The position numbers and the translations under genes were made by a program. Of a stretch of 57,861 nt of DNA, positions 1,456-17,094 are shown piece after piece (the first letter of the stretch is position 1; each line of letters opens with the position of its first letter). The stretch is from the NCBI GenBank assembly GCA_041650795.1, contig JBAZKK010000005.1:1-57861 (forward strand), written 5' to 3'. The notes under the pieces were generated by a model. The model was given only the letters and a program-made list of their open reading frames with translations. It did not search any database and was not told where the DNA came from. This DNA comes from Candidatus Omnitrophota bacterium. GTDB lineage: Bacteria; Omnitrophota; Gorgyraeia; Gygaellales; Profunditerraquicolaceae.

Positions 1456-1467
1456 TCTTTAAAAAGT

Positions 1468-1503
1468 AACACTGCAGGGCGAAGTGATTTGCCCTGCAGT
1501 GTT
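1468..1503 (-). terminator. Stem-loop between pstS and pstC (terminator/attenuator or mRNA stabiliser)
   Basis: Perfect 13-bp inverted repeat aacactgcagggc (1468-1480) / gccctgcagtgtt (1491-1503), followed on the minus strand by ACUUUUU just before the pstC ATG. Confidence 0.7.
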
Positions 1504-1531
1504 GTGGAGGTTTGAGTAAACGCTTGATTTT

Positions 1532-2344: not shown

Positions 2345-2420
2345 CTCTCTTCCTCCTCCTTGCATATACACGCCGCACCAGCGCAATTAGCACTTAGCGC
2401 CGGGTGTGTCTTTCTTTTGC

Positions 2421-3701
2421 TTAGAATTTCAAATTCCAATCAACCTGAACTAGGGTTTCCGGAGCCCTCCTCCCGATCAAGCTCCAGGAACGGTAAACAT
2501 CAAGACCCAGGAAGGTATTCTTGCCTAAGCCGTAGTTTAATGCGACCTCATGGCTTCTCATACCCGTCTTTCCGCTGTAACGGTCGGAATCGGGGGTAAC
2601 ATCAAGCACTGCGTCTTTCTCAAGCATCGCGTAGATGTACTTGAGTTGCCAATCCCCGAATTTGGAGATCTTATCGTTACCTAACTGGAAGCCTAATGAA
2701 AAACCTGTATTATTGTCGGAGGTAGCGAGGTTCTCGACGTATTCGCCGAAGAGCTTCATATTCTCGATATCCAACCCCACAGCTTTGAAAGGCTCCTTGA
2801 TGCTAAACTCTAATGCTGGGCTGATAGTGCGGTAATCATACGCCCAGTTGGAGCCATTCTTGGTGTTACTGCTTTTATACCAATCTGCAGTAGGATAAGC
2901 CCTGCCCTTGGTATTGCCGCCGATATTGGCTGTAAAAGCACCCTTCAAGGACATGGAATCATTAAGCTTATAGGTAGCTCCGGGTTGGATGATATACATC
3001 ATCACCGGGTCGTTATCCGAACTGGTATCAGCGGTTTGGACCAATACGCCGGTATTCATAAAAAGGCCGGCATTATCGCCCAGCCCCTTGTTAAACTGGA
3101 GCACGCCTCCTTCAGGCGTGATATCCGTATCCCAGATCAGGTCCGTCGGTTCCCATAGCACATCATTCAAAAGCATCTTGCCGCCGACAATGGTCAACCA
3201 GGGCAAGGCGCTGTATTTGGCGTAGGCATTATCAAGCCGGATCTCCATCTTGGTGGAATAACCATCGCCGCTCCCGCCAAAGGTCATATTCGTGGAGCGC
3301 GGGTCACCGCTGGAGTTAGTGGCAATACCGACACCGACCATAATCTTCTCATTTACCTTTGTTTCTAATCCAAGGCGCATGCGCAACCGTCCGATCTGCG
3401 TATCCTTGGAATAATCGTTTGCTGCCTTCTCGTGCTTATACTGGTACCTTAAACGCAAATCGCCCTTAAGCTTGATATTCTGTACCCAGGCCGGTAAAGA
3501 AGAAAACTTGCCTGCTGCGATTTCCGCCTTCACCTGCTCCTTTGTCTCGGTGCCGATCTGCTGCGCTTCCCCTGCAGTCAAAACCTTCTTTTCAACCAGC
3601 TTTTGAAGCAAAAGGTCGATCTCCCCGGCATAGGAAGAACCTAAACCCAAACCAAAGGTCATAAAACCTGCTAAAGCCGTCATTGCCAAAAACTTTCTCA
3701 T
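2421..3701 (-). CDS. Outer-membrane beta-barrel 'putative porin', probably phosphate-related
   Basis: Signal peptide, N-terminal helical segment (EIDLLLQKLVEKKVLT), LKGDLRLRYQ first strand, alternating aromatic beta-strands, C-terminal ...DWNLKF beta-signal. Sits directly upstream of pstS with a strong RBS. Confidence 0.78.
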   Translation of the reverse strand: MRKFLAMTALAGFMTFGLGLGSSYAGEIDLLLQKLVEKKVLTAGEAQQIGTETKEQVKAEIAAGKFSSLPAWVQNIKLKGDLRLRYQYKHEKAANDYSKDTQIGRLRMRLGLETKVNEKIMVGVGIATNSSGDPRSTNMTFGGSGDGYSTKMEIRLDNAYAKYSALPWLTIVGGKMLLNDVLWEPTDLIWDTDITPEGGVLQFNKGLGDNAGLFMNTGVLVQTADTSSDNDPVMMYIIQPGATYKLNDSMSLKGAFTANIGGNTKGRAYPTADWYKSSNTKNGSNWAYDYRTISPALEFSIKEPFKAVGLDIENMKLFGEYVENLATSDNNTGFSLGFQLGNDKISKFGDWQLKYIYAMLEKDAVLDVTPDSDRYSGKTGMRSHEVALNYGLGKNTFLGLDVYRSWSLIGRRAPETLVQVDWNLKF

Positions 3702-3721: not shown

Positions 3722-3916
3722 TCAGTTATTTGCGTACAACTTCCTGATCTTCCGCAGACTATTCTCTATTTCCTTAAGGGATTCGTGCGCGTAATTACAG
3801 TTGCAGGCGCGCTCCTCCTCCATATTGCTCAATACGCCGCGCAGGCGATTGAGCTGCAAACGTAGATGACTAGTTATAAACTCCTTTCGCATCGAAGACA
3901 TATCGCGTACTTCCAT
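3722..3916 (-). CDS. Small helical hypothetical protein (64 aa), weakly CsoR/RcnR-like
   Basis: TAATG overlap with the upstream regulator and it fills the gap to the porin RBS. The segment RLRGVLSNMEEERAC has the spacing of CsoR-family RG-x5-EE-x-R-x-C. Confidence 0.6.
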   Translation of the reverse strand: MEVRDMSSMRKEFITSHLRLQLNRLRGVLSNMEEERACNCNYAHESLKEIENSLRKIRKLYANN

Positions 3917-4365
3917 TATGCCTGTCTCCTCTGCATCCTTTCCATCACGGGATCAGACTTCACCACAAAATCCTTATGCCTTACCTGAGCCAATTCTTTT
4001 ACAACCCGCATCAGTTCCCCTACGCAAAATGGCTTAGTAATATACTGGTCTGCCCCTAAAAGGTTACCGTAGAGTTTATCCTGTGTTTCGCCCTTGGCCG
4101 TCAAGATAACCACAAAGGTACCGGATGCTTTAGGGTCGTCCTTAATGGCCTTGCAGATACTGAAACCGTCCGGTCCTGGGAGCATAACATCAAGGATAAT
4201 AATATCGAAGTGTCCTTTTTTAAGCTTTTCCTGCGCTTCGTAGCCGTCATAAACGCACTCGGGATAAAAACCGCTCTTAGAAAGGTTGTAGGAAATAAGC
4301 CGGTTAACATCCCTATCATCATCAACCACCATTATTCTTTTTTCTTTTGTAGTCACAGCTTCCAC
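3916..4365 (-). CDS. Stand-alone response-regulator receiver domain (PhoB/OmpR-type receiver, no DNA-binding domain)
   Basis: IMVVDDD, IIILDVMLPGPDG (phospho-Asp), LTAK, YITKPF; only a short C-terminal tail. GTG start with a poor RBS. Confidence 0.88.
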   Translation of the reverse strand: MEAVTTKEKRIMVVDDDRDVNRLISYNLSKSGFYPECVYDGYEAQEKLKKGHFDIIILDVMLPGPDGFSICKAIKDDPKASGTFVVILTAKGETQDKLYGNLLGADQYITKPFCVGELMRVVKELAQVRHKDFVVKSDPVMERMQRRQA

Positions 4366-4520: not shown

Positions 4521-4574
4521 AGTTTATAAGATCGCTGTTACGAAATCCTTAAAGGACTGTGAACTTTCTGCAAA
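4521..4574 (-). promoter_or_regulatory. Putative Pho-box promoter P2 (upstream of receiver-smallORF-porin-pstSCA)
   Basis: Minus strand TTTGCA gaaag TTCACA gtcct TTAAGG atttc GTAACA gcgatctta TAAACT: four hexamers at 11-bp period, a 9-nt gap, then a -10 element. Confidence 0.75.
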
Positions 4575-4579
4575 CATTC

Positions 4580-5356
4580 TCATATGTCCAGTTTATAGCC
4601 TTCCCCCTTGACCGTAACAATAAGACAGGAGTCATGCTGGTTATCCTCCAATTTCTCCCGAAGATGGCTGATATGGACATCAATATTGCCGTATTCCACT
4701 ACCTTGTCTTCCTCCCAAACCGCATCCAGGATCTCGCTGTGGCTCAATACCCTGCCGGGATTATCAATAAAAAGCTTTAAAATCCCCCTTTCTTTCCGGG
4801 TAAGAAAGACCTCCCGGCCGTTGCGCCTGACAATAAAATCCTCGAGGTCAATCTCCAGCCGGCCGATCCTGGCAATCCTGGGTTTATGATAGCGGCCTTC
4901 AGACCTGGCAAGGACCCTTTTAATCCGCACAATCAATTCCCTCGGGCTAAAAGGCTTGGCGACATAATCATCGGTGCCGAGATCAAAGCCTTTAAGCTTG
5001 TGGTCAATCTTTGAAAGGGCGCTTAACATAATGATGGGGATGTCCCTTGTTAAAGGGTCTTTCTTGAGCTTGCGGCAGACATCCCAACCGTCAATATGCG
5101 GGAGCATGATATCCAAGATAACTAGGTCCGGCTTCTTAGCCCTGCAAGTCTCAATTGCCTCAAGGCCGTCTGCGGCAGAAAGCGCCTCATATCCGGAAAT
5201 AGTAATATGGAATGACAAAAGCCGCACCAGCTCTTTTTCATCGTCAACGATTAAAATCTTCTTTTTTGATATTGACGCGGCTTCCGGTAAAGTTTGCGTA
5301 CTTTCCAGATGAGTATTTATGATTGTCTCCTTTTTTCTTCTAAAACGCTTCTCCAT
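4580..5356 (-). CDS. OmpR/PhoB-family response regulator (second PhoB-like paralog)
   Basis: Receiver (ILIVDDE, LVILDIMLP, LSA, YVAKPFS) plus winged helix (VLSHSEILDAVW, NIDVHISHLREKL, TVKGEGY). Start codon uncertain; about 30-aa N-terminal extension. Confidence 0.92.
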   Translation of the reverse strand: MEKRFRRKKETIINTHLESTQTLPEAASISKKKILIVDDEKELVRLLSFHITISGYEALSAADGLEAIETCRAKKPDLVILDIMLPHIDGWDVCRKLKKDPLTRDIPIIMLSALSKIDHKLKGFDLGTDDYVAKPFSPRELIVRIKRVLARSEGRYHKPRIARIGRLEIDLEDFIVRRNGREVFLTRKERGILKLFIDNPGRVLSHSEILDAVWEEDKVVEYGNIDVHISHLREKLEDNQHDSCLIVTVKGEGYKLDI

Positions 5357-5370
5357 TGTTCTGTAGTAAA

Positions 5371-5424
5371 ATTATAACCGGCCATGGTTACAAAAACATT
5401 GAGATGATGTAAAATCTTTGTGAA
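5371..5424 (-). promoter_or_regulatory. Putative Pho-box promoter P1 (upstream of the PhoB-like paralog)
   Basis: Minus strand TTCACA aagat TTTACA tcatc TCAATG ttttt GTAACC atggccggt TATAAT: same geometry as P2-P4. Confidence 0.75.
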
Positions 5425-5429
5425 CTCTC

Positions 5430-6086
5430 TCAATGCCTCTTCTCTATCGCCATAAATGACCCTCCCAGCGGCAAAGAAGAAAGTTTCCCTTGGAGCAAAG
5501 CGATGACACCCTCTATCTCCTTCTTATCTGCTGTATCCGGCTTCAGGCGAAGATAATTGCGGTAATGCCTGATGGCTCCGGCGACATCATTTTTATACGA
5601 CTCCAGCAGTACCGCCAGATTATACTCTACGCCCGGGTCCTCGGAACCAAACTCCAACGCATCCTGATAGCCCCTTATCGCTTCCTCAAAAAAATTCCCC
5701 TGCAGGTAAGCATCCCCGAGTTTGGCGCTATATTCGGCGCGGGTCTTACGCACTAACCCTTCCAGATACCCCAGTTCTTTTTTGAGTCTTCGGTTTTCCT
5801 CAATTATAGAAAAGGATGACTTGCCGGAGTGGTTGCCGGAAGAGCTATCCGTATCTTTAATATCAGAGATGCATTTCATTTCATAAAAATTCGGGGTGCC
5901 GCGATAATCTATCCCGATATGCTCGCCTGTCTTCTCAACGACATCAGTTCTGACCTGCTTACCAGACTTGCAAAAAGCTGCCTCGGCTGAAGATCTCTGC
6001 GCTAAATACGCTGTTACATATAAAACCGCAACCGCAATTAATTTAATCTCTCGGCTCTTGGTCTTGGGAGGGAATCCCGGCTTCAC
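5430..6086 (-). CDS. Membrane-anchored coiled-coil + TPR protein
   Basis: N-terminal hydrophobic segment (LIAVAVLYVTAYLA), coiled coil (IIEENRRLKKEL), two to three TPRs (KLGDAYLQGNFFEEAIRGYQDAL; VEYNLAVLLE...AIRHYRNYLRLKP). Start overlaps the stop of the upstream 1,507-aa gene by 4 nt. Confidence 0.8.
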   Translation of the reverse strand: MKPGFPPKTKSREIKLIAVAVLYVTAYLAQRSSAEAAFCKSGKQVRTDVVEKTGEHIGIDYRGTPNFYEMKCISDIKDTDSSSGNHSGKSSFSIIEENRRLKKELGYLEGLVRKTRAEYSAKLGDAYLQGNFFEEAIRGYQDALEFGSEDPGVEYNLAVLLESYKNDVAGAIRHYRNYLRLKPDTADKKEIEGVIALLQGKLSSLPLGGSFMAIEKRH

Positions 6087-9000
6087 GACCGTCCGCCGGC
6101 ATCCGGAGATGCTTCTAACAATACAAGTATCTCCCTTAGCTCCGGCTTGGTTACAATTACCATCCTTTCCTCTATCCTCAGGATTTCTGCTACGCCGCTG
6201 CGGACCTTGGCTAATAACTCTCCTCTAAAACGGCTCATCCTGGCAAGCTCGTAACATTCTTTTACCTTTGAGGTTTGCGGCAGGTCTCCTTTCTTGATGA
6301 CCTCCTGCACCTGACTCCAAAGCACCTTAAAATCATTGTCATAGTCCTGGCGCAACGGTGACAAAGGCACTTCTCCTGATACGCCATTGCCGTCGTCCTT
6401 CAGGATGGTTATCGGGAGCGTCCGCAAATCAATCCCCCCCGGTAAAACCGCTCCCCCCTGAAGAGGCGCCCTGCCATCGTGCTGCAAAAAAGGAGGCATC
6501 GTTTCTTTCCCCGATGAAACAGGACCTGCTGTTTCTGCTCCGGGGGCCTTCTGGCCTACCTCTGCCAAAACGGCCCCTATCTTTGACAAACGGTAGAAAT
6601 TCTTATAGCGGTGGCTGGTGGGGTCGTATTTTTTATCCTTAATAAGAAAGCCTTCTCCTGTTACCATCTCCAGATCACGGTAGACCGTAGAATAAGAAGG
6701 CTGGATTTCGTATTCATCAACGGCAGAATATAATTGCTCTAAGGTATCCCGTATTGTAAATTCGGCATGGTTTTGTCCACTAAAAAAATCCCGAAGCATA
6801 AAGCGTCTCTTTGGGGCGTCAAATGTCGTCCTGGGTTTGCGTGTTAAAGAATGCTGATGCCGCAAGACAGCAACTCCGACCAGCTTGCCTTCTTCTCGAA
6901 AAACGCTGGGTTCGGTATATAAGCTTCCCAACCCATTCTTCAATAATTGACGGGCATAGCTGGTACCATCTAGCCTTACATACAGCGATCCGGGTTGATA
7001 AGGTATTAAGGTATTCATCTTAAGATTCTCGAGATTGCTATCCTTGGCCTTGCTGGAAAAATGTGGCCAGTATATATCAAACAACCCGTCAAAAAAATCC
7101 CATTCTTCTTTTGATCCCAGCTTCTGCGTCTCCAGGAAACGGTGTATATCCTTGCCCTCTCCGTTGGCAAGCATAATCAACGGCACTAAAAGATGCGTGG
7201 TAAGGCTGACCTGGAAACCGGAGTCGGCATGCTCTGCCAGGTATCCCTTAAGACGCGAAAGAAGCGACATGAAGCTTTGATAACGCCCGCTGTCATCAAT
7301 GCTTATTGCCATCCCTCCCCCAAAAACGGACATCTGTCTTCTCTCCTGGTTGCGCCAATCAAACAAAAACGACGAAAGGTAACGGGGGGCAAACTTATCC
7401 TTGACCTTCTGAGCCCCAACATGCTGGAATAGCTTCACGAGATGGTTAGCGGCCCCCTTCTTCTTGCGCCCGTTGCTATTGCCGTTAGTAACGAGTAAAC
7501 CCAAGTCCTGTTTCTCCATCTGTTCGCTGCCGACCCAACTGCCGAACAACTCTATATCGCCCAATATCCTGCTTTCCAGTAAAGCTTTCTTATCGGCAAT
7601 AGAACATTTGTGCGCGAACTCCGCTGCAATGCCGTTCCTGTTCTTATCCTGCAAGGCCTGGGTAACCTGGTAACCGCTGATAAGCGCCAATTCCAAGGGG
7701 GTGAGGGAACGCCCCAAGCCGGGGACCTCCGGCAGAGGCAATGGGTTAAGCGCGGTATCAACATCCCGCCCCCTCCCCAATAATACGATAGCCCTCCTGA
7801 ACCTCTGCGCCTCCAGCATCCCTTCAATGAACGATGATGCGCTTCCCTTAGTATCAGCCCTGATGCAGACGATGGAGACATCATCGCGCAATAAAGTTCC
7901 TTTGATACTATCCAGGAACCTGCGCATCTTCTCCTTTTGGTCGCTAACCACGATCACCGCCTCTGCGCTGGCAGCTTCTAAACGGAGCTCTTTGGAAAGC
8001 GACTCCAACGAATTCAGGTAAGCGTCATTCAAGGCCTTGTCCTTTAAGCCACCGGATAAGGAAGGCGCAATAGCGTTTAATTCCTTTTTTAATTTCGATA
8101 TCCTGAAAATGTTTCTATTGTGGGGGGTATCCTTCTTGCCGGTTACCTGCAGGGCATACCAAGAAAAAACCAACGGCACCAGCCCTGATAAAGACTTCGT
8201 CAACCCTAAAACCGCCTGCCCCCGCGCTGCCTGGTCAGCGGCAGCCAGGACAGAGGCAATGCCGTTAATTATAGTCCCCGGCAATGAGATTAAAAGCACT
8301 ACCGCAATAAAAGGGCTGAGCATCTCGCGGAACCAGATCCAGCCCTTCCTTGCCCCCAGCCTTACCTTCTTTCCGTGATAACAATCCTCAACCCAATTAT
8401 CCCAATCTTCAATAACGCGGTCTGCTATGCCGCTGTCTTCGCTATAGAGATTATCAATCCGGTTGCCCAGGGGGATAATCTTTCCCGTCAGCTGCTCACG
8501 CAACCTCCGGGTGGAATCTTTGAAATTACGGTTGAAACCGAATACCGCCCCTACAATAGCGGCCAGCATCCTGCCAGCCAGTGTCCTGCGGTCAAAACGG
8601 TCCCCTGAGGACATCGGTATATTCTCCACGGCGTGGAGCGTATGCTGGCATTCGTCAAGATATTCAATCATCAAAAGGAAGTCCTCCGCGTAGATTTTCA
8701 GCTGGCGCCGATTGGAACTATCAGCGGCAACGCGGATTTCAGCCATAAGGCTCTCAAGCGCCGTATATAGCTGTGAAATGGCCTCCCCGTATATCTCATA
8801 ATATTTCGTGCGGTGTTCGGTAACAAACCCGGCCTCAAAAGGCAGCATCGCCGTCAATTTTCTCGCCTTATCAAGACAAACAAGATAACCCGCGCTGCTC
8901 TCTGGGGCCTCCGCGACAGCGGATTTTAGCTCTTGCAATACCGCACTTACCGAATATTCCCAATTGTTTCTACTCTCTTGATTGTTGGTTCTTTGTGGAT

Positions 9001-10606
9001 GTGGGCGTCGGGTTACAACGCGGTCTACATGTTTTGCCGAACGGTATATCCACTTATGCGCTCCCGCGGTATTACGGGAGTCCTTCTTATCTTTAACCCA
9101 GCGAAATAGCGAATAAATGCCCAGGATTGAGATAAAAATCGCCGTTGCCGACAGCCCGGGATACCTCTGGATGGTATTGGACAAAAATGCGCCGGCATTG
9201 CCTGCCAGCTGTCCGAACTGCTGGAAAAGCCGGTCAATAGAGAAACCCTGCAGTTGCCCTTGCGCAGCTGCGGATAAGCGGGCACCGAGAGAAGGTGCCG
9301 GAGTGGCGGTTGCAGGAGCGTGGGAAAAAGTAGTTAATCCCGGAGTGAAAGGACGAGACGGTAAAGGGGTAGAAACAGGGGCGCCTGTATGACTGATGGT
9401 TGAGGAAACCGTCTTACCTATATTATTATCGTTAACTATAACTCTGTCTCCCCTAAACTCAATACCCAATGCCGGGTCGCCAGAAATAACGGGAATTAAA
9501 GGCCGGCCTCCGATGATAGTTACTGAACCCTCAGTAACGCTCGTACCTGGTTTTGGGGAAGCCGGCATTGATAGGCCTAAAGAGATGCCGCCAAAAAAAT
9601 AATTCCTTACGGCCTGGCCTTCCAGACCGAAAACTACCTCTGAACTGTTATATTCCCCGCGCTGGTATGATTTCCTGTATTCCTTGAAGTAATACTTCTT
9701 GTCCCATGGCCTTTGCGACCTTAACCCTGCCAGGCAGCGCGTATCAATGAATTCCGAATGCCTGACAAAGGTACCCCTGAAACGGCTTTTAAACCACTGG
9801 GCAAGGATGAAAGAATAATACAACTGGCGCAAGGCCGCGTATCTGTCTGAGGTATTAACCGCCTTCACTAACTGGGGCATTATTCTGGCATTGAATAACG
9901 ATAAGGCAAAATCGTTGAACCTCTTAACACGGATGTCATCGTAGTAATAATTTTGATTAAGGTATTCGTTTTCGTTCAGAACATTAAGCGTGGCTTTATA
10001 GATATAGGCGCTTTGCCCAGACTCACGGATAATGATTTCCCCGGGGACTATCCACACCCTCATAGAAACAGGGGCATCCGACCCCACCCCCCCGAATATC
10101 TCACCCGCCTTGCGGTATAATGCCTGCCAATACTGTTTCCCCGAATCGGTATACGGCGATGTAAGCCGGCCTAGCTCACTCTTGAGTTCCAGATCCGCCG
10201 CTAACATTATCCTGCCCGCATCGGTCTTGGCCATGTCGCTATCAAGCATCTGGTCTTCGGCATCCGGCCTCAGATTGACCCAATATGAATTATTAGGAAG
10301 GCTGACTGCGATGAGGAAGAACCTCAATAGTTCAGCGGCCTGGTCCCTGGCATTATCCTTATCGTTACCGCGATAATCCCCGCTGTCAACTAAGAGGCGC
10401 AAAATGTCTGAGGTTCTCTCGTAAGCAAGAGACCTTAGGTGCGGTTGGTATGCTACCAGGGGCGGGGGGAACATCGCGTTTTCAAATCCCTGTACGGATG
10501 CCCCCTGTTCGAACAAGAAAGAAAAACACAAGAGTAGCGCTACTACCTTGCGCATTGCGACAACTATGCCTGAAGTATTGGGATAACCGATGGTTTTTTT
10601 ATCCAT
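6083..10606 (-). CDS. Large (about 1,490-1,507 aa) exported/membrane protein of unknown function with N-terminal WVNLRP domain and C-terminal GGIDL motif
   Basis: Long ORF. Probable start ATG 10555 (MRKVVALLLCFSFLFEQ, signal-like). Contains a globular domain (FFLIAVSLPNNSYWVNLRPD...TDAGRIMLAADLELK), a P/T/S-rich linker, several hydrophobic helices, an internal winged-helix-like segment (SYSTVYRDLEMV) and PGGIDLRTLPI followed by a helical tail. Confidence 0.85.
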   Translation of the reverse strand: MDKKTIGYPNTSGIVVAMRKVVALLLCFSFLFEQGASVQGFENAMFPPPLVAYQPHLRSLAYERTSDILRLLVDSGDYRGNDKDNARDQAAELLRFFLIAVSLPNNSYWVNLRPDAEDQMLDSDMAKTDAGRIMLAADLELKSELGRLTSPYTDSGKQYWQALYRKAGEIFGGVGSDAPVSMRVWIVPGEIIIRESGQSAYIYKATLNVLNENEYLNQNYYYDDIRVKRFNDFALSLFNARIMPQLVKAVNTSDRYAALRQLYYSFILAQWFKSRFRGTFVRHSEFIDTRCLAGLRSQRPWDKKYYFKEYRKSYQRGEYNSSEVVFGLEGQAVRNYFFGGISLGLSMPASPKPGTSVTEGSVTIIGGRPLIPVISGDPALGIEFRGDRVIVNDNNIGKTVSSTISHTGAPVSTPLPSRPFTPGLTTFSHAPATATPAPSLGARLSAAAQGQLQGFSIDRLFQQFGQLAGNAGAFLSNTIQRYPGLSATAIFISILGIYSLFRWVKDKKDSRNTAGAHKWIYRSAKHVDRVVTRRPHPQRTNNQESRNNWEYSVSAVLQELKSAVAEAPESSAGYLVCLDKARKLTAMLPFEAGFVTEHRTKYYEIYGEAISQLYTALESLMAEIRVAADSSNRRQLKIYAEDFLLMIEYLDECQHTLHAVENIPMSSGDRFDRRTLAGRMLAAIVGAVFGFNRNFKDSTRRLREQLTGKIIPLGNRIDNLYSEDSGIADRVIEDWDNWVEDCYHGKKVRLGARKGWIWFREMLSPFIAVVLLISLPGTIINGIASVLAAADQAARGQAVLGLTKSLSGLVPLVFSWYALQVTGKKDTPHNRNIFRISKLKKELNAIAPSLSGGLKDKALNDAYLNSLESLSKELRLEAASAEAVIVVSDQKEKMRRFLDSIKGTLLRDDVSIVCIRADTKGSASSFIEGMLEAQRFRRAIVLLGRGRDVDTALNPLPLPEVPGLGRSLTPLELALISGYQVTQALQDKNRNGIAAEFAHKCSIADKKALLESRILGDIELFGSWVGSEQMEKQDLGLLVTNGNSNGRKKKGAANHLVKLFQHVGAQKVKDKFAPRYLSSFLFDWRNQERRQMSVFGGGMAISIDDSGRYQSFMSLLSRLKGYLAEHADSGFQVSLTTHLLVPLIMLANGEGKDIHRFLETQKLGSKEEWDFFDGLFDIYWPHFSSKAKDSNLENLKMNTLIPYQPGSLYVRLDGTSYARQLLKNGLGSLYTEPSVFREEGKLVGVAVLRHQHSLTRKPRTTFDAPKRRFMLRDFFSGQNHAEFTIRDTLEQLYSAVDEYEIQPSYSTVYRDLEMVTGEGFLIKDKKYDPTSHRYKNFYRLSKIGAVLAEVGQKAPGAETAGPVSSGKETMPPFLQHDGRAPLQGGAVLPGGIDLRTLPITILKDDGNGVSGEVPLSPLRQDYDNDFKVLWSQVQEVIKKGDLPQTSKVKECYELARMSRFRGELLAKVRSGVAEILRIEERMVIVTKPELREILVLLEASPDAGGRS

Positions 10607-10785
10607 GCCTGCTACTCTATCGCTTCAAAACATTCAAGGAAGCTATGCCTTGATGACAACTCTTGCTCCTTTGAGGACCTCGGACAAATCTGCCGGCCGC
10701 TAAAATTTAGGGCGGCATGCCAGAGAGCCAAATGGTGCGGCTGCTTAAAAGGCAGGCGGATATTCCCGGCAATCCCAAGGGCGCC

Positions 10786-11043
10786 CTATTTTGATGCGGC
10801 CGCCAAACCAGTGATTGGCCCGAGAGAATCCGGGAATTCCCTCCCTTGTGGCTGCGGGAATTCCCTTCTCCGTTTGATCTTCGCCATTTCCACCAAGGAG
10901 TTCCAAAGCCATACCTGCTTTTCTTGAAAATCCAGCTCAACCATCCAATCGTTGAAGAGAAGACGGCATAGTTCTCTCATTTCAACGCTTTCCTCCTCAA
11001 CGCTCCTGCTATTGCCTGTTATCATTACTGATTCTGGCAGCAT
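10786..11043 (-). CDS. Hypothetical protein (85 aa)
   Basis: Strong RBS GGAGGTGGAAG-ATG; first ORF downstream of putative promoter P3; no recognisable family. Confidence 0.55.
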   Translation of the reverse strand: MLPESVMITGNSRSVEEESVEMRELCRLLFNDWMVELDFQEKQVWLWNSLVEMAKIKRRREFPQPQGREFPDSLGPITGLAAASK

Positions 11044-11096
11044 CTTCCACCTCCGTGGCTTTAAGGGGTTAATGCAATCGTGCTCAACGCAAACAA

Positions 11097-11150
11097 AGTA
11101 TAAACTACGGCGGCTAAAAAATCCTTAAGGGAATGTAAAATCTCTGCAAC
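11097..11150 (-). promoter_or_regulatory. Putative Pho-box promoter P3 (upstream of 85-aa ORF / 1,507-aa gene / TPR)
   Basis: Minus strand GTTGCA gagat TTTACA ttccc TTAAGG atttt TTAGCC gccgtagtt TATACT: close to P2 in sequence and identical in spacing. Confidence 0.72.
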
Positions 11151-11204
11151 TTATTTTTGGGTCGGATGTTAACTCGGAGAATAAAACGAAGGGTGCGGCT
11201 GGTT

Positions 11205-12977
11205 TTACGCTAAGGGGATAGTGAAGCTAAAGGTTGAGCCCTGCTCAAGCTCGGACCTCACCCAAACCTGTCCGCCATGGGCCTGAACAATATGTTTTAC
11301 AATCGAAAGCCCGAGGCCTGTCCCGCCCAGTTCGTGGGAACGGGCCTTGTCCACACGGTAAAACCTCTCGAAGATCCTGGGGAGGTCTTTTTCAGAAATT
11401 CCTATCCCGGTATCGCTAACGTCAACCTGCAGGACATCATTGACTACCTTGGCAGCAATTGAGACCGTGCCGCCTTCCGGGGTATATTTAATGGCGTTAT
11501 CCAAGAGATTAATCATAACCTGGGAAAAACGCGTCTCATCGGCTTTTACCTTCGGAAGCCCCGAAGGAAGCTCGGTATTTAATGCGATAGATTTTGCCTC
11601 GGCCTGATTCTCTATTACGGTTGCGGCGCGCCTGATAAGCACCGTTGGGTCAAGCGGGGCAAAAGACATCTTCATCTTACCGGATTCTATTTTAGACAAA
11701 TCCAGGAGATCATTAATGAGGCTGGCAAGGCGGTTACTATTCTGATGGATAATGTTTACAAATTCCCTGGCATTTTCTTTGTCTTCCAGCGCCCCTTCTA
11801 ATAAAGTCTCGGCATATCCTTTGATGCTGGCGATAGGGGTACGCAATTCATGGGAAACATTTGCGACAAAATCCTGCCTTATCTTTTCCAGCCGCCTGAG
11901 CTCAGTGATATCGTGAAAGACTAGGATTGCCCCTTCAAGTTTATCATTACGAATAATGGGAACGCCGTTTACCTTCAGTATCTTTTCCTCCGGGATGCCG
12001 ACCGGGATCTCTTTGGTAGCGAGGCGTTGTTTGTCCTTCAATATCTTATCTGCCAGATCCTTGACTGCGATGTTCCTGATTATCTCCAGGAGCTTCTTTC
12101 CATATGGGTCGCCATCAACCAAAAAGAGCTTCCTTAAGGAGGGGTTCATTAAAATAATCTCTTCGCTCTCATTGATGACAATCACCCCTTCAAACATGCT
12201 TGACAACACCAGCCCTAACCTTGCCTTCTCGGCATTTATCTTTTCGATCTTATCCTTTATCTCCTCGGACATGCGGTTTAAGGACCGCGCCAATTGGCCT
12301 ATTTCATCTTGCGAATAAGCCGGGGCCTTTTTAGAAAAATCCCCTCTGGCCATTGCCCGGGCGATACCCGCCATTTCCGTGAGCGGCCGGGATAACGATA
12401 TAGAAACCAGGAATGTCAAGCCCAGGCTTAAAAACAATATTCCGGCGGCGCCTATTCCAACCGTCTTACGCATCTTTGCCTCGAGGGATTCTATCTCGCT
12501 CAGGGCAACCGCAAATCTCAATACGCCTTTGGCCCTGCCTTTACCGAAAGGAACGGCAATATAAAGCATATTTTTTCTGATGGTATAACTAAAACGGAGG
12601 CTCTCCCCAAACCCCTTGTTAAATGCATCCCGGACCTCAGGCCTGTTGGAATGGTTCTCTACCGCAGCCAACCTCTCCTTGGTGATATCCGTATCACCCA
12701 GAACTCTGCCATCGGAAGAAATAACGGTTACCCTTAAATTAAGGGTCTTGCCCGTTTCAGAAGCAAAAACTTGAAAATCAACCGGAGAAAGCGGGTTATT
12801 TAAAGACGCCTCCAGAAAATCCCGCCCCAGGAAAAGTTGACGCTTGATATTATTGCGGAGGTTATTTTCTATGTAGGAGTTCAGATGGACAATATAGTAA
12901 AGGTAGCCCGCCGAAATTGCCAGGACGGCTATAACGCAAAAAACAAGGACCAGTTTCCAATGTAGCTTAATCCGCAT
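11205..12977 (-). CDS. phoR: Phosphate regulon sensor histidine kinase PhoR (TM-dCache-like periplasmic domain-TM-HAMP-PAS-HisKA-HATPase)
   Basis: H-box DFVANVSHELRTPIASIKGYAETL, NLLDNAIKY, DTGIG, FERFYRVDKARS, GGTGLGLSIVKHIV. Start moved to ATG 12977, which overlaps the phoB 3' end. Confidence 0.92.
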   Translation of the reverse strand: MRIKLHWKLVLVFCVIAVLAISAGYLYYIVHLNSYIENNLRNNIKRQLFLGRDFLEASLNNPLSPVDFQVFASETGKTLNLRVTVISSDGRVLGDTDITKERLAAVENHSNRPEVRDAFNKGFGESLRFSYTIRKNMLYIAVPFGKGRAKGVLRFAVALSEIESLEAKMRKTVGIGAAGILFLSLGLTFLVSISLSRPLTEMAGIARAMARGDFSKKAPAYSQDEIGQLARSLNRMSEEIKDKIEKINAEKARLGLVLSSMFEGVIVINESEEIILMNPSLRKLFLVDGDPYGKKLLEIIRNIAVKDLADKILKDKQRLATKEIPVGIPEEKILKVNGVPIIRNDKLEGAILVFHDITELRRLEKIRQDFVANVSHELRTPIASIKGYAETLLEGALEDKENAREFVNIIHQNSNRLASLINDLLDLSKIESGKMKMSFAPLDPTVLIRRAATVIENQAEAKSIALNTELPSGLPKVKADETRFSQVMINLLDNAIKYTPEGGTVSIAAKVVNDVLQVDVSDTGIGISEKDLPRIFERFYRVDKARSHELGGTGLGLSIVKHIVQAHGGQVWVRSELEQGSTFSFTIPLA

Positions 12978-13662
12978 CGTCCTCCTCGAATCTATACCCC
13001 AGACCGCGGATTGTTTCAATCGCCCTGCCTAACCTGCCGAGCTTTTCTCTCAAGCGTTTGATATGGGTATCAACGGTACGGGTATAAATATCGGCATTTA
13101 TATCCCAGACGTCAGAAAGCAGCCTCTCACGAGACTGCACCCGTCCTGCCCGTTCAATTAGAATAACCAATAGCTTAAATTCTATCGGGGTAAGCTCAAT
13201 CTCATTATTGCCCACGGTAACTTTATGCTTCGGCACATCAATGACTAGGCCGCCTCTCTTAATGGTATCTTTTGCGGCCTCCTCGGGTTTGCCTCTTCTT
13301 AAAATCGCCTTAATACGCAAAATAAGCTCCCTGGCGCTGAAAGGCTTTACCATATAATCATCCGCGCCAAGCTCAAGGCCAACAACCCTATCAACCTCTT
13401 CTCCTTTGGCGGTAAGCATAATAATAGGGGTGTTTTTAAGTTTGTCGCTTTGCTTTATGAGACGGCAGGTCTCAAAGCCGTCCATCTTAGGCAACATGAT
13501 ATCCAACACTACGAGGTCCGTCTTCTGCTTTGCTAAAATTCCAAGCGCATCCTCGCCATTATCAGAGATAAAACACTTATAGCCGTTCTTTTCCAAGTTG
13601 TACTGCAGCAATTTTGAAATATGCCTGTCGTCTTCAACTATCAATATTTTCTCTTTCGACAT
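12967..13662 (-). CDS. phoB: Phosphate regulon response regulator PhoB/PhoP
   Basis: Receiver plus winged helix with TRTVDTHIKRLREKL and IETIRGLGYRF; coupled to phoR. Start moved to ATG 13662 (MSKEKILIVEDD). Confidence 0.9.
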   Translation of the reverse strand: MSKEKILIVEDDRHISKLLQYNLEKNGYKCFISDNGEDALGILAKQKTDLVVLDIMLPKMDGFETCRLIKQSDKLKNTPIIMLTAKGEEVDRVVGLELGADDYMVKPFSARELILRIKAILRRGKPEEAAKDTIKRGGLVIDVPKHKVTVGNNEIELTPIEFKLLVILIERAGRVQSRERLLSDVWDINADIYTRTVDTHIKRLREKLGRLGRAIETIRGLGYRFEEDDAD

Positions 13663-14350
13663 CGTAACCTCTACCTTTTCTATTCTCTCCGCGGCAGACA
13701 TTTACGCAGACCCCACAGATATACTGGTCCGTTAAACGCTGCTTCTGGAAACTTTTAAGCTTCTCAAAACAGAGAAGATGGTCAAACGAGGCGCTGTCTT
13801 CCTTTATTGCGCCTGCCGGACATATTTTAACACAAAGCAGGCACTTCCCGCAGTCTTTTCTTAAAGGGCTATCTGCCTCCAGAGGCATATCGGTAAGGAT
13901 GGAGACGAGGCGCAGCTGGCTTCCGAATGAGGGATTAACCAAGAGATTATTCCTGCCTACCCAACCTAATCCTGCCAGATAGCCGATTCTCTTATGCGAA
14001 AGGTGCCCCTTCTGGTTCTGCCAGTCTAATATCTGGGAGGCAGGAACCGGAAGCGCACGGTAACCCTTGCGTTGAATGTAATTGCAGGTTCGAAGAGCTG
14101 CTTGGTCAAGAAAGGCATTGACAGTGCGGTAATGATGGAAATAAATCCGAGTGGGCGCATTCTCAATATCAGAGAGTATTGCCGAGGACAACCTCGCCCC
14201 CAGCGATACCCCTCTTTTGAGGCCGGCCAGGGAACGTTTTGAAAGCGCGAAGTCTTGCTTTACCCCGGAGATATCGGCGACCCCAAAGAGGTCCACCCCC
14301 ATATCGAGGCAGAAATCTTTAAGGGCGCTGTAGTTTTTGCCTTTGCTCAT
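13634..14350 (-). CDS. Epoxyqueuosine-reductase-like (QueG/COG1600-type) 4Fe-4S protein
   Basis: LSHKRIGYLAGLGWVGRNNLLVNPSFGSQLRLVSILTD followed by CxxCxxCxxxCP and a C-terminal CxxCxxxC. True QueG activity cannot be established from sequence alone. Confidence 0.75.
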   Translation of the reverse strand: MSKGKNYSALKDFCLDMGVDLFGVADISGVKQDFALSKRSLAGLKRGVSLGARLSSAILSDIENAPTRIYFHHYRTVNAFLDQAALRTCNYIQRKGYRALPVPASQILDWQNQKGHLSHKRIGYLAGLGWVGRNNLLVNPSFGSQLRLVSILTDMPLEADSPLRKDCGKCLLCVKICPAGAIKEDSASFDHLLCFEKLKSFQKQRLTDQYICGVCVNVCRGENRKGRGYDVERENIDS

Positions 14351-16199
14351 TGAGCTTCCTGAGGTACACCATTAATATCGCAACTGCTGCCGGGGTCACC
14401 CCTGAGATACGGGAGGCCTGGCCAAGGTTTATGGGCTTTGAGCTTTTAAGTTTTTCACGAATCTCCCGCGATAATCCGCTGAGAAGGTTATAGTCCAATT
14501 CCGCAGGCAGCCTTATCCTCTCCAGGTTCCTGAATCTCTCTACCTCGGCAAGCTGGCGCTGGATAAACCCAGAATATTTTACTTCAATTTCCATCTCTCT
14601 TCCAATACTTTCCGGAATATTCCCAAGCAACCCCACTCCCCTTAAATCCTCAATACTTACCTCAGGCCGCCTCAAGAGTTCTTCTAAGCTAACCGCCTTT
14701 TTGAGGGGAGGTGTTGCCTGTTTCTTGAGAATATCGTTTATGCCGGAGCCAAAACCAATGCGCTTTTCTTTTAAGAAAGCGATTCCCTCCTCAATACTGC
14801 GGGATTTCTCTTCAGTCTGGCGATAGGTCCAGGAATCAACCAAACCGACGCCATAGCCGATTTTGCGTAACCGTAAATCCGCGTTATCCTCCCTTAGGAT
14901 GAGGCGGTATTCGACGCGCGAGGTAAACATACGGTAAGGCTCATTAGTGCCCTTTGTAGTTAGATCGTCGATTAAAACCCCGATGTAACCCGAGCTGCGG
15001 TCTAACACCAACGGCTCCTTCCCTTTAGAGCTTAGGGCAGCGTTAATACCGGCAATCAGGCCCTGAGCAGCTGCCTCTTCATAACCGGTAGTGCCGTTGA
15101 TCTGTCCGGCCAGATAAAGATTCTTGATTAACTTCGTCTGGAGGCTCGGGTAAAGCTGAAGAGGATCAACCACGGTATGCTCAATGCCGTAACCGAATTT
15201 TAATACCTTGGCGTCCTCCAGCCCCTCGATGGAATGCAGCATTTCCAACTGCACGTCCTCGGGGAGGCTGGTGGCCAGGCCGTTGGGATAAACCTCTCTT
15301 GCGTCGTATCCCTCAGGCTCCAGGAATACCTGGTGCCTGGCTCTCTCCTTGAATTTTACAACCTTGTCTTCAATGGAAGGGCAATAACGCACTCCGGTTG
15401 CCTGTATTACCCCGGTATAAAGAGGGGAACGGTCAAGGTTATCCAGTATGAGCCGGTGCGTATTTTCGTTAGTATAAGTTATATAGCAAGGTATCTGCCT
15501 CTGTTTAATCTCACGAGTGGAAAAAGAGAAAGGCTTGGGAGGATTGTCTCCTTCTTGAGCCGCAAGACGCGAAAAATCAATGGTATCCTTATCCAGGCGG
15601 GGGCAGGTGCCGGTCTTAAAACGCAACAGCCTAAAGCCTAACCTCTTCAAGTTATCGCTTAATTCTACGGCAGCAGGCTCGTCAATGCGCCCGGCGCTGA
15701 AATGCTTAAGACCTACGTGGATGACCCCGTTTAGAAAGGTCCCCGGAGCAAGCACTACCGCGGAAGACTCCAGCGCTCCAGCAGCATCCGTAAGCACTCC
15801 TTTGACGCTGCCGTCTTCCACTATCAAGGACCTTACATGGGCTTCCTTTACCTTGAGGTTATGCTGACTGCTGACTGCGGCGCGCATATAATTCTTATAC
15901 AGCTTGCGGTCAATCTGGCACCGTGAAGATTGCACTGCTGCGCCCTTGGAAGCATTCAGGATGCGAAACTGTAGGCCTGAAGAGTCTGCTGCGCGGGCCA
16001 TCTCTCCTCCTAACGCATCAATCTCCTTGACAAGCTGGCCCTTGCCAACCCCGCCGATTGCCGGATTGCAGCTCATCTGGCCGATAGTTTCTGCGCTTAA
16101 GGTTACCAAAAGCGTGCTCTGCCCCATGCGACTTGCTGCCAAAGCTGCCTCTATACCGGCGTGCCCGGCCCCGACTACTACCACATCATATGTATCCAT
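14319..16199 (-). CDS. mnmG: tRNA uridine-5-carboxymethylaminomethyl(34) synthesis enzyme MnmG (GidA)
   Basis: VVGAGHAGIEAA, MSCNPAIGG, RFKTGTCPRL, GVRYCPSIEDK, AGQINGTTGYEEAAAQG, YRMFTSRVEYRL. Confidence 0.98.
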   Translation of the reverse strand: MDTYDVVVVGAGHAGIEAALAASRMGQSTLLVTLSAETIGQMSCNPAIGGVGKGQLVKEIDALGGEMARAADSSGLQFRILNASKGAAVQSSRCQIDRKLYKNYMRAAVSSQHNLKVKEAHVRSLIVEDGSVKGVLTDAAGALESSAVVLAPGTFLNGVIHVGLKHFSAGRIDEPAAVELSDNLKRLGFRLLRFKTGTCPRLDKDTIDFSRLAAQEGDNPPKPFSFSTREIKQRQIPCYITYTNENTHRLILDNLDRSPLYTGVIQATGVRYCPSIEDKVVKFKERARHQVFLEPEGYDAREVYPNGLATSLPEDVQLEMLHSIEGLEDAKVLKFGYGIEHTVVDPLQLYPSLQTKLIKNLYLAGQINGTTGYEEAAAQGLIAGINAALSSKGKEPLVLDRSSGYIGVLIDDLTTKGTNEPYRMFTSRVEYRLILREDNADLRLRKIGYGVGLVDSWTYRQTEEKSRSIEEGIAFLKEKRIGFGSGINDILKKQATPPLKKAVSLEELLRRPEVSIEDLRGVGLLGNIPESIGREMEIEVKYSGFIQRQLAEVERFRNLERIRLPAELDYNLLSGLSREIREKLKSSKPINLGQASRISGVTPAAVAILMVYLRKLNEQRQKLQRP

Positions 16200-16238
16200 T
16201 TTTAACGATTTGTCCGGGAGCTGAAGAAAGGAAGCCCC

Positions 16239-16991
16239 TTAAGGCTTGACTTCTATTTTCTGAAGAAATCTTTCGGTTTTTATTATACCATTGCGGTCGG
16301 AGTTTTTCTGGAATATTTTTTTTGCTACCAGGAGACTTTCACGCGCCTCTTGATACTTGCCGGTATTATAATAAGCCTGGGCAAGAAGAAGGTAGGCATC
16401 AGCATCCTCCGGGTGAAGTTTTAAAGCGGCGAAAAGATAGGCTATGGCTTTTTGAAAATCCGTAAGCGCAAAGTATATCGCGCCAAGGTTATAATTGATA
16501 TCGGGGTCTTTGGGGTTAAGCTCCCATGCCTTTTCCAAAGAAACAGCCGCGTCTTGATAATTCCCCTTCCTCATGTCGCGGAATCCCTTAAAAAGGTATA
16601 CGGCACACTGCTTGCTGATGGAGCCATTCTTTACTCCTTCCAGGACCCCCAAGGCGCCGTTGATATCGGCAAGCTCATCGTTAAATTCTCTTTGGGCCTC
16701 CTCAAAATTTCCTCCCGCGGCTAAATCCATTCCTTTTTCGAAACCGGAGGCTGAAAGACCCGCCTCATTCGTTTCGCCGCTTGAAAAAGCAGAATTATCT
16801 TCAGCAATACTCTTTATGTACTTGTTCTCGAAATAGACCTCGCTGCTGTTGTATTTTATTTTTAGATAATCCGGCGTTCTTTCTATTATCTTGCCTTGTA
16901 TCTCTTTGCCGGATTTAAGCACAACGGTATCCGCTAAAGCGGTATTGAAGAAAAAAACGGCGAACATTGACACCCAAAAGATTTTTCTCAT
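16239..16991 (-). CDS. Exported TPR protein
   Basis: Signal peptide (MRKIFWVSMFAVFFFNTALA), small beta domain (DTVVLKSGKEIQGKII), about four TPRs (YNLGAIYF..., YLLLAQAYYNTGKYQEA). Confidence 0.82.
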   Translation of the reverse strand: MRKIFWVSMFAVFFFNTALADTVVLKSGKEIQGKIIERTPDYLKIKYNSSEVYFENKYIKSIAEDNSAFSSGETNEAGLSASGFEKGMDLAAGGNFEEAQREFNDELADINGALGVLEGVKNGSISKQCAVYLFKGFRDMRKGNYQDAAVSLEKAWELNPKDPDINYNLGAIYFALTDFQKAIAYLFAALKLHPEDADAYLLLAQAYYNTGKYQEARESLLVAKKIFQKNSDRNGIIKTERFLQKIEVKP

Positions 16992-17040
16992 TTCTAAGTA
17001 ATTAGTCGTTATTACTGCCTCGGTTCCGTCCTAAGAACTA

Positions 17041-17094
17041 AAAATACTGCGTTTTTGTAACATAATCTTTAAGAAAATGCAAACTTTTCGCAAA
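17041..17094 (-). promoter_or_regulatory. Putative Pho-box promoter P4 (upstream of TPR-mnmG-queG-like-phoB-phoR)
   Basis: Minus strand TTTGCG aaaag TTTGCA ttttc TTAAAG attat GTTACA aaaacgcag TATTTT: same spacing as P1-P3. The -10 is weaker and the first hexamer overlaps the upstream terminator U-tract. Confidence 0.6.

What the first reader, a model, noticed from the sequence alone, without database searches (positions are those of the whole stretch)
4521..17094. Four promoters with identical 4x11-bp Pho-box geometry define an extended Pho regulon
Seen (minus strand): P1 TTCACA-5-TTTACA-5-TCAATG-5-GTAACC-9-TATAAT; P2 TTTGCA-5-TTCACA-5-TTAAGG-5-GTAACA-9-TAAACT; P3 GTTGCA-5-TTTACA-5-TTAAGG-5-TTAGCC-9-TATACT; P4 TTTGCG-5-TTTGCA-5-TTAAAG-5-GTTACA-9-TATTTT. 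Spacing is exact in all four, and each repeat position has its own consensus (the third is always T[TC]AA.G). Known: PhoB/PhoP bind 11-bp-period direct repeats that replace the -35. The distance to the -10 matches my recollection of E. coli pho promoters. Inference: this is the lineage's Pho box, usable as a genome-wide motif.
Basis: partly seen in the sequence, partly recalled or inferred. Interest (0 to 1): 0.7.

Follow-up and report, generated by a model that had tools for sequence, protein, structure and literature searches.

The report
Phosphate-starvation promoters in an Omnitrophota genome
Four promoters in the phosphate-gene cluster of an uncultivated Omnitrophota bacterium carry the classic four-repeat docking site of a phosphate-starvation regulator, a familiar switch that here also controls a second regulator gene and a 1,507-residue protein of unknown function.

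Summary
All four 54-nt sites exist exactly as quoted, on the minus strand. A weight matrix built only from relatives' sites scores them at 52, 40, 38 and 25 bits. The next best hit in the 1.185-Mb assembly scores 6.9 bits, which is within shuffle noise.

The same architecture lies between phoR and the porin-pstSCAB genes in dozens of Omnitrophota genomes, and in pst loci of other phyla. It has four TTnACA-like hexamers at 11-bp period, then 9 bp, then a -10 element. This is the Bacillus subtilis-type PHO box, so the Pho-box reading is supported and the element is a new member of a known kind.

Three caveats apply:
- The motif finds no further targets in this genome.
- It belongs to only one of two paralogous Pho systems in the family. 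A same-genus relative uses the other variant (TTTACA).
- Binding and phosphate response remain untested, because the tool for finding sequencing runs was closed.

One finer point is new. It is T before the second regulator gene (RR2) and G at promoters after it and before the giant gene. G-type boxes occur only in genomes that carry RR2, which suggests a two-tier cascade.

The parts
5371..5424 (-). P1. The PHO box is at 5386-5424 (TTCACA-5-TTTACA-5-TCAATG-5-GTAACC), followed by a 9-bp gap and the -10 TATAAT at 5371-5376. It drives RR2. It belongs to class 1 (T at box position 27, strong -10).
   Evidence: (40.5 bits with the relatives-only PWM).
4521..4574 (-). P2. The PHO box is at 4536-4574 (TTTGCA-5-TTCACA-5-TTAAGG-5-GTAACA), followed by a 9-bp gap and the -10 TAAACT at 4521-4526. 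It starts 6 nt after the RR2 stop codon. It drives the single-domain receiver, the porin and pstSCA. It belongs to class 2 (G at position 27, weak -10).
   Evidence: (52.4 bits).
11097..11150 (-). P3. The PHO box is at 11112-11150 and the -10 TATACT at 11097-11102. It lies downstream of phoR and upstream of the 1,507-aa gene and TPR218, with a leader of about 490 nt.
   Evidence: (37.8 bits). Boxes also precede the orthologous giant gene in G011, G123 and L120.
17041..17094 (-). P4. The PHO box is at 17056-17094 (TTTGCG-5-TTTGCA-5-TTAAAG-5-GTTACA) and the -10 TATTTT at 17041-17046. It sits directly after a T-run downstream of apgM. It drives TPR250 and possibly reads through into mnmG, the Fer4 gene, phoB and phoR.
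   Evidence: (24.7 bits, the weakest site). A weak hairpin lies at 16232-16247.
12967..13701 (-). RR1, a PhoB-like OmpR-family response regulator. The maximal ORF is 244 aa; relatives are 229-232 aa, so the true start is probably further downstream.
   Evidence: Pfam Response_reg + Trans_reg_C. The best NCBIfam hit is TIGR02154 PhoB at 251 bits, below the 296 cut-off. The DNA-binding domain is closest to E. coli PhoB structures 3t72/1gxp.
11205..13019 (-). PhoR-type histidine kinase (HAMP-PAS-HisKA-HATPase).
   Evidence: NCBIfam PnpS equivalog at 458.5 bits, above the 400 cut-off; TIGR02966 PhoR at 321 bits, below 334.
4580..5356 (-). RR2, a second OmpR-family regulator without its own kinase gene. 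Its phospho-acceptor residues are intact and its recognition helix is diverged (GNIDVHISHLR).
   Evidence: 37% identical to RR1.
3916..4365 (-). Single-domain (CheY-like) receiver, the first gene after P2.
2..3701 (-). Porin (2421-3701), pstS (1532-2386), pstC (565-1455) and pstA (2-568, running off the contig end). No separate box precedes the porin or pstS.
5430..10606 (-). A 1,507-aa protein with no Pfam match (6083-10606) and an overlapping TPR gene (5430-6086).
16239..16991 (-). TPR250, a secreted or lipoprotein-like TPR protein and a paralogue of TPR218.
   Evidence: Its homologues are linked to Pho clusters in G123, L051, L055 and L120.
13634..16199 (-). mnmG (14319-16199) and a QueG-like 4Fe-4S protein (13634-14350), packed directly upstream of phoB.
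   Evidence: The mnmG-Fer4-phoB-phoR synteny is conserved in relatives.

Best explanation
The four sites are activator-dependent sigma-70-type promoters. In each, a 39-bp PHO box takes the place of the -35 element. The box has four TTnACA-like hexamers, one per helical turn, and the last hexamer ends 9 bp before the -10.

Proposed mechanism (inferred): when phosphate is scarce, the PhoR-type kinase phosphorylates the PhoB-like regulator RR1. RR1 binds head-to-tail as two dimers over the four repeats and recruits RNA polymerase through sigma region 4.

This would switch on four units: (P2) a single-domain receiver, a porin and pstSCA; (P1) a second OmpR-type regulator, RR2; (P3) a 1,507-aa orphan protein with a TPR partner; and (P4) a paralogous TPR protein, possibly with read-through into mnmG, the Fer4 gene and phoBR.

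Shown here: the sites, their uniqueness in the genome, their geometry, their conservation in orthologous promoters, and the PhoB-like recognition helix of RR1. Inferred: binding, phosphate dependence, transcription starts, operon extents and which regulator binds.
For: All four sites are present exactly as quoted and are unique in the genome. A PWM from relatives only gives 52.4, 40.5, 37.8 and 24.7 bits against a next best of 6.9.

The gene context is phoB/phoR, porin and pstSCA. The kinase passes the PnpS equivalog cut-off. The DNA-binding domain of RR1 is closest to E. coli PhoB, with recognition helix RTVDTHIKRLR against RTVDVHIRRLR.

No -35 pairs with the four -10 elements in the sigma-70 scan. 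By contrast, a paralogue of the giant gene on contig C49 has TTGAAT-16-TATATT and no box.

Orthologous sites with the same 9-bp gap lie between phoR and RR2, the receiver, the porin or pstS in more than 25 Omnitrophota genomes. In 80 pstC loci from many phyla there are 71 hits, all on the pst strand, and 0 for the reversed control. Boxes also precede the giant-gene orthologues in three further genomes (G011, G123, L120).

[quoted passage not shown] It also fits the 11-nt direct-repeat definition (PMC4415409). E. coli boxes lie 10 bp upstream of the -10 (PMC1906773).
Against: RR1 scores below the curated PhoB equivalog cut-off (251 against 296 bits).

P4 is weak (24.7 bits, -10 TATTTT), and no orthologous box upstream of mnmG or phoB was seen in close relatives. 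A hairpin after TPR250 may stop read-through.

P3 is about 490 nt from the giant gene's start. The 85-aa ORF between them has no homologue in the two relatives' loci examined.

The genome's second pst operon (contig C31) has only degenerate repeats without the 9-bp geometry, so the motif does not cover all phosphate genes.

The promoter-proximal half (TTAAKG-ATTTT-GTWAC) departs from TTCACA, so a second reader of that half cannot be excluded.
Confidence: 0.8

Rival explanations
1. Two-tier or composite control. RR1~P activates class-1 boxes (third repeat TTAATG or TCAATG, good -10), which include the promoter of RR2. RR2 is phosphorylated by the same kinase. Alone, or together with an RR1 dimer on the TTCACA pair, it reads the promoter-proximal half of class-2 and class-3 boxes (TTAAGG, poorer -10) in front of the receiver-porin-pst operon and the giant gene. 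This would form a feed-forward cascade.
For: Box position 27 is T in 18 of 18 sites that precede RR2 or are the sole site in RR2-less genomes. It is G in 12 of 12 sites after RR2 or before the giant gene. Class 2 also always lacks T at -10 position 3.

RR2 orthologues (59-67% identical) occur in 10 genomes, all with TTAAGG boxes. Eleven system-B genomes without RR2 have none. These include G054, which belongs to the same genus as the RR2-bearing G053.

RR2 orthologues share a conserved recognition helix that differs from RR1 ([YF][GA]NIDVHI[RS]HLR against TRT[VI]DTHIKR[LV]R).
Against: The class signature could be inherited from one ancestral promoter duplication that came with RR2. It may instead be maintained for promoter strength: with a 17-bp spacer, position 27 falls in the -35 window, giving ATGATT (3 of 6 matches to TTGACA) against AGGATT (2 of 6).

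The sites are orthologous, so the counts are not independent events. There are no binding data. The own-genome P4 has A at this position.
Confidence: 0.3
2. The sites belong to a regulator unrelated to phosphate (RR2 alone or another factor), and their position beside the pst genes is incidental.
For: Regulator identity is inferred only. RR1 is below the PhoB equivalog cut-off.
Against: The motif tracks phoR-pst intergenic regions across families and phyla. It matches experimentally defined Firmicute PHO boxes (PMC11870197). RR2-less genomes keep the box.
Confidence: 0.04
3. The four sites are recent copies of one promoter cassette or repeat element, or a chance resemblance, with no common regulator.
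For: The four sites are about 70% identical over 39 bp and lie within 13 kb of each other.
Against: Similarity is confined to the hexamers and to compositionally constrained spacers. It ends sharply before the 9-bp gap, and the flanks are unrelated. Each site has its own orthologue in other genera, where spacers are randomised but hexamers are kept. Shuffles never reach these scores.
Confidence: 0.02

Closest known systems
Bacillus subtilis-type PHO box (PhoP~P core binding region; also found in Lacticaseibacillus paracasei pstS)
   Same: It has four TT(A/T/C)ACA-like hexamers at 11-bp periodicity on the coding strand upstream of pst genes (PMC11870197). The L. paracasei pstS box tttacacaatctttacattcaatgacatgaacatttaca is nearly superimposable on the Omnitrophota TTTACA-type boxes.
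   Different: In this window's system the two promoter-proximal repeats have a consensus of their own (TTAAKG and GTWAC). The gap to the -10 is fixed at 9 bp. The phylum is Omnitrophota, where no Pho promoter has been tested.
Escherichia coli PhoB-dependent promoters (for example pstS with two Pho boxes)
   Same: They use 11-nt direct repeat units bound head-to-tail, with the box replacing the -35 and lying about 10 bp upstream of the -10, and activation runs through sigma-70 (PMC4415409, PMC1906773). The recognition helix of RR1 is nearly identical to that of E. coli PhoB.
   Different: The repeat core is CTGTCAT in E. coli and TTCACA/TTTRCA here. RR1 is below the NCBIfam PhoB equivalog cut-off.
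Streptomyces coelicolor PhoP direct repeat units (GTTCACC)
   Same: These are 11-nt direct repeat units with variable number and conservation between promoters (PMC2275107, PMC4415409). The core GTTCACC resembles (G)TTCACA.
   Different: Streptomyces operators are variable in number and position and are often repressive. Here the number (4) and position are fixed.
Pho cascades with a second-tier regulator (for example PhoB to PtrA in marine cyanobacteria; from my own knowledge, not checked here)
   Same: A regulator gene sits behind a Pho box, and a subset of Pho genes may need it.
   Different: Here the second regulator is itself an OmpR/PhoB-family response regulator with no kinase of its own. 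The two promoter classes differ by a single conserved base and by -10 quality.

Membership tests
PHO box (PhoB/PhoP-dependent promoter) | At least two, typically four, direct repeats of a 6-7-nt core at 11-bp periodicity | tested here: met
   Four hexamers with exact 5-bp spacers occur in all four sites.
PHO box (PhoB/PhoP-dependent promoter) | The box replaces the -35 and lies at a fixed short distance upstream of a -10 element | tested here: met
   The gap to TAnnnT is 9 bp in all four sites, in the relatives' sites aligned (one exception, G123, at 10 bp) and, as a built-in requirement of the search pattern, in the hits. The sigma-70 scan finds no -35 partner.
PHO box (PhoB/PhoP-dependent promoter) | The sites lie upstream of phosphate-acquisition genes and next to phoBR | tested here: met
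   P2 precedes the receiver-porin-pstSCA unit, and the phoB/phoR homologues lie in the same cluster.
PHO box (PhoB/PhoP-dependent promoter) | The sites are conserved in orthologous promoters of related genomes and are specific to those loci | tested here: met
   21 hits against 1 control; 71 hits against 0 control.
PHO box (PhoB/PhoP-dependent promoter) | The sites are bound by the phosphorylated response regulator | not testable with these tools
   This needs EMSA, footprinting or DAP-seq.
PHO box (PhoB/PhoP-dependent promoter) | Transcription is induced by phosphate limitation | not testable with these tools
PhoB (TIGR02154 equivalog), for RR1 | The score reaches the curated whole-protein cut-off | tested here: not met
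   RR1 scores 251.4 bits against a cut-off of 296.2. PhoB is still the best-scoring family.
PhoB (functional type), for RR1 | A PhoB-like winged-helix recognition helix, and a gene adjacent to a PhoR-type kinase | tested here: met
   The best PDB matches of the DNA-binding domain are E. coli PhoB structures 3t72, 1qqi and 1gxp (E = 3e-20). The helix is RTVDTHIKRLR. The kinase passes the PnpS equivalog cut-off.

The most novel reading that the evidence does not exclude
The boxes form two functionally distinct classes read by two paralogous regulators. RR1~P would open class-1 promoters, including that of RR2. RR2 has its own conserved recognition helix and would be needed for the TTAAGG-type, weak-core promoters of the pst operon and the giant orphan protein.

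The family also holds two insulated PhoBR and PHO-box pairs: TTTACA boxes with an R[TS]LR helix, and TTCACA boxes with a KRLR helix. These pairs coexist in some genomes and have been swapped as a cassette between species of one genus.
Probability: 0.3. Interest if true: 0.6.

Novelty: new member of a known kind. Interest (0 to 1): 0.38.

Why it matters
No Omnitrophota has been grown in pure culture, so regulons can only be inferred from sequence. A well-supported PHO box gives a concrete way to read phosphate responses in metatranscriptomes of this phylum. It also ties a phylum-specific giant protein of unknown function, and its TPR partners, to phosphate scarcity.

The class-specific base and the three regulator paralogues with distinct recognition helices offer a compact natural system for studying how paralogous PhoB-type regulators stay insulated or form cascades. 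The switch itself is ordinary. Its value lies in annotation and in the testable cascade hypothesis.

Tried and rejected
- **More regulon members in the own genome.** I scanned with full-length PWMs and half-site PWMs (repeats 1-2, repeats 3-4, repeats 3-4 plus the -10). Nothing rose above noise apart from the four sites.
- **Rfam scan of 1-20000.** I looked for leader RNAs or riboswitches and found no match at gathering thresholds.
- **Giant-protein relatives in genome contigs.** A single-protein query gave no confirmed relatives. I used the genome search and the pstC loci instead.
- **The 85-aa ORF after P3 as the N-terminus of the giant protein.** Rejected. It has no homologue in the G011 or G123 loci, and the giant protein aligns from residue 18 to residue 6 of the G011 protein.
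- **ECF-sigma promoter reading (GTAACC as a -35).** Rejected. A 9-bp spacer is far too short, and the upstream repeats are equally conserved.
- **Recent duplicated cassette.** Rejected, as explained under the rival explanations.
- **B. subtilis phoPR paper.** PMC344217 is not held.
Full report
**Observation.** Each of the four quoted 54-nt strings occurs exactly once in the window, on the minus strand: P2 at 4521-4574, P1 at 5371-5424, P3 at 11097-11150 and P4 at 17041-17094. No shuffle gave a match.

When the four sites are aligned, the hexamers and the composition of the spacers are shared. Spacer 1 is purine-rich, spacer 2 pyrimidine-rich and spacer 3 T-rich. The 9 bp before the -10 and both flanks are unrelated. 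This is the pattern of a protein-binding site, not of a copied segment.

**Context.** Reading the minus strand from high to low coordinates, the order is:
- apgM, then P4
- TPR250, mnmG, a QueG-like 4Fe-4S protein, RR1 (OmpR/PhoB type) and a PhoR-type kinase, then P3
- a 1,507-aa protein with no Pfam match and TPR218, then P1
- RR2 (a second OmpR-type regulator), then P2
- a single-domain receiver, a porin, pstS, pstC and pstA, which runs off the contig end

The kinase passes the NCBIfam PnpS equivalog cut-off. RR1's best family is PhoB, but its score is below the cut-off (251 against 296 bits). RR1's DNA-binding domain is closest to the E. coli PhoB structures 3t72, 1qqi and 1gxp. Its recognition helix is RTVDTHIKRLR, against RTVDVHIRRLR in PhoB.

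The sigma-70 consensus scan pairs none of the four -10 elements with a -35.

**Uniqueness.** The window is contig C5 of a 1.185-Mb, 64-contig assembly that is 85% complete.
- A PWM from the four sites finds no other site above shuffle level.
- A PWM built only from 16 sites of other genomes scores P2 at 52.4, P1 at 40.5, P3 at 37.8 and P4 at 24.7 bits. The next best hit is 6.9 bits and the shuffle maxima are 3.2-7.4.

The motif is therefore not scattered before housekeeping genes. Equally, it adds no further regulon members.

**Relatives.**
- A degenerate pattern with up to 2 mismatches hit 21 places in 41 related genomes, against 1 for the reversed control. All but one lie in phoBR-porin-pst loci (the exception, G006:C56, was not examined).
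- A generalised pattern that includes the -10 matched in 182 of 234 genomes of the order.
- In 80 pstC loci from many phyla it gave 71 hits, all on the pst strand, and none for the reversed control.
- Among the sites aligned without requiring a -10, one (G123, before the giant gene) has a 10-bp gap; the rest have the 9-bp gap before a TAnnnT, most often TATACT. The generalised pattern itself fixes this gap.

Record titles name the closest relatives 'Candidatus Omnitrophota bacterium'. The same geometry appears in MAGs labelled Elusimicrobia, Endomicrobiales, Aminicenantes, Thermodesulfobacteriota and Bacillota.

**Comparison with known boxes.** The published descriptions fit.
- PHO boxes are 11-nt direct repeat units bound head-to-tail, with activation through the sigma factor (PMC4415409).
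- E. coli boxes lie 10 bp upstream of the -10 (PMC1906773).

The finding is thus a correct recognition of a known kind of element in a phylum where it has not been studied. A search for Omnitrophota together with PhoB and pstS listed no paper on this among its ten best-ranked hits.

**Two Pho systems.** The family holds two paralogous modules.
- System A runs mnmG-Fer4-two genes-RR1_A-HK_A, then TTTACA-type boxes, then (porin)-pstS and the rest of the pst genes. Its regulators are about 50% identical to RR1.
- System B has RR1_B (at least 61% identical to RR1) and HK_B, then boxes of the form TTCACA-5-TTCACA-5-TTAAKG-ATTTT-GTWAC. These are followed optionally by a giant gene with a TPR gene, RR2 and a receiver, and then by porin-pstSCAB.
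- G053, G123 and G124 carry both systems.
- The same-genus genome G002 has apgM, mnmG, Fer4 and the porin at 86-93% identity to the window, but carries system A between them. The regulatory cassette has therefore been exchanged within the genus.

Each regulator group has its own invariant recognition helix:

| Group | Recognition helix |
|---|---|
| RR1_B | TRT[VI]DTHIKR[LV]R |
| RR1_A | [TS]RTVDVHIx[TS]LR (x usually R), plus a 2-residue loop insertion |
| RR2 | [YF][GA]NIDVHI[RS]HLR |

The Arg-versus-Thr/Ser difference parallels the C-versus-T difference at hexamer position 3. Linking these two is my inference, based on my recollection of Arg-guanine contacts in the PhoB-DNA structure.

**Promoter classes.** I aligned 31 system-B sites by what they precede.
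- It is T in 18 of 18 sites that precede RR2 or are the only site in RR2-less genomes.
- It is G in 12 of 12 sites that follow RR2 or precede the giant gene.
- It is A in P4.
- Class-2 sites (those after RR2) also never have T at the third -10 position (TAAACT, TAGACT, TAAGCT), whereas class-1 sites have TATACT or TATAAT.
- RR2 orthologues occur in 10 genomes, all with G-type boxes. Eleven system-B genomes without RR2 have none.

Two readings fit these facts. RR2 may read the promoter-proximal half, giving a cascade. Alternatively, the base may tune a residual -35, because it falls in the -35 window: ATGATT against AGGATT. The sites are orthologous, so the counts are not independent events. 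I put the cascade at about 0.3.

**The extended regulon.**
- The giant gene keeps a box in three further genomes: G011, G123 and L120.
- TPR250 is a paralogue of TPR218. Its homologues sit after the giant gene in G123, directly before RR1_B in L051 and L055, and directly after phoU in L120. This supports P4 as a genuine member despite its low score.
- It is uncertain whether P4 also feeds mnmG, the Fer4 gene and phoBR. A weak hairpin follows TPR250, and no comparable box was found before mnmG or phoB in close relatives. More distant ones (G027, G043) have a partial box before phoB.
- P3 lies about 490 nt before the giant gene's start, and the intervening 85-aa ORF has no homologue.

**Limits.** A second, system-A-like pst operon on contig C31 has only degenerate repeats and no cognate regulator in the assembly. 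The motif therefore does not describe all phosphate genes of this organism.

Earlier notes from this scan report similar boxes in other Omnitrophota genomes and had already raised a two-input idea. I used them as leads only.

**Verdict.** The element is a new member of a known kind. Interest is moderate and rests on the class-specific base, the RR2 association and the link to the giant orphan protein.

Noticed in passing
window 11205-17094 and 2421-5424, compared with L036 (G002:C4:68000-87999): The same-genus genome G002 has apgM, mnmG, Fer4 and the porin at 86-93% protein identity to the window. Between Fer4 and the porin it carries a different regulatory cassette: two extra genes, RR1_A at 50% identity, HK_A at 40%, and TTTACA-type boxes. 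It has no RR2, no giant gene and no TPR250. This looks like a cassette swap of regulators together with their boxes.
   Followed up: partly
own genome, contig C31:8417-11100 (outside the window): A second pstSCA operon lies here (42-57% identical to the window's). It is preceded by phoU and by degenerate repeats (TTTACC-5-TTTCAG-5-TTCAGT-5-TTCGGA) that abut a TATAAT without the 9-bp gap. No system-A regulator is present in the assembly. It may be a decayed box.
   Followed up: partly
L033 (G053:C4), L034/L035 (G123), L037 (G124): Some genomes carry both Pho systems, with TTTACA boxes next to RR1_A and TTCACA boxes next to RR1_B. Each regulator group has its own invariant recognition helix. This suggests two insulated regulator and box pairs within one cell.
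   Followed up: partly
window 4381-4497 (-): The roughly 150-nt leader after P2 contains a 38-codon ORF (TTG start) behind a strong GAAGGAG ribosome-binding site. Its conservation was not examined.
   Followed up: no
window 3722-3916 (-): A 64-aa ORF starts in a TAATG overlap with the receiver gene's stop codon and fills the 215-nt gap before the porin gene. In the relatives examined (G011, G013, G053) the receiver-porin gap is only 19-104 nt.
   Followed up: no
window 10786-11043 (-): An 85-aa ORF with a good ribosome-binding site lies directly after P3. It has no homologue in the G011 or G123 loci, and the giant gene starts about 180 nt further on.
   Followed up: partly
own genome, contig C49:~2800-4086: A paralogue of the giant protein's N-terminal domain (42% identity over 338 aa) has a canonical TTGAAT-16-TATATT promoter and no PHO box.
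   Followed up: partly
L045-L124 (pstC loci from many phyla): The generic geometry (four TTnAC hexamers at 11-bp period, 9 bp, then TAnnnT) recurs upstream of pst genes in MAGs labelled Elusimicrobia, Endomicrobiales, Aminicenantes, Thermodesulfobacteriota and Bacillota. There are 71 hits, all co-oriented with pst, and 0 in the reversed control.
   Followed up: partly
window 5356-5371 (-): The annotated ATG of RR2 lies only 14 nt after the P1 -10, so the mRNA would be nearly leaderless. The first 20-28 residues are not conserved in RR2 orthologues, so the true start is uncertain.
   Followed up: no
G001 (same genus, 93% complete): No PhoB-type regulator was found at E <= 1e-40, and there was no box hit at up to 2 mismatches. 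The Pho cluster may be absent or unassembled in this genome.
   Followed up: no
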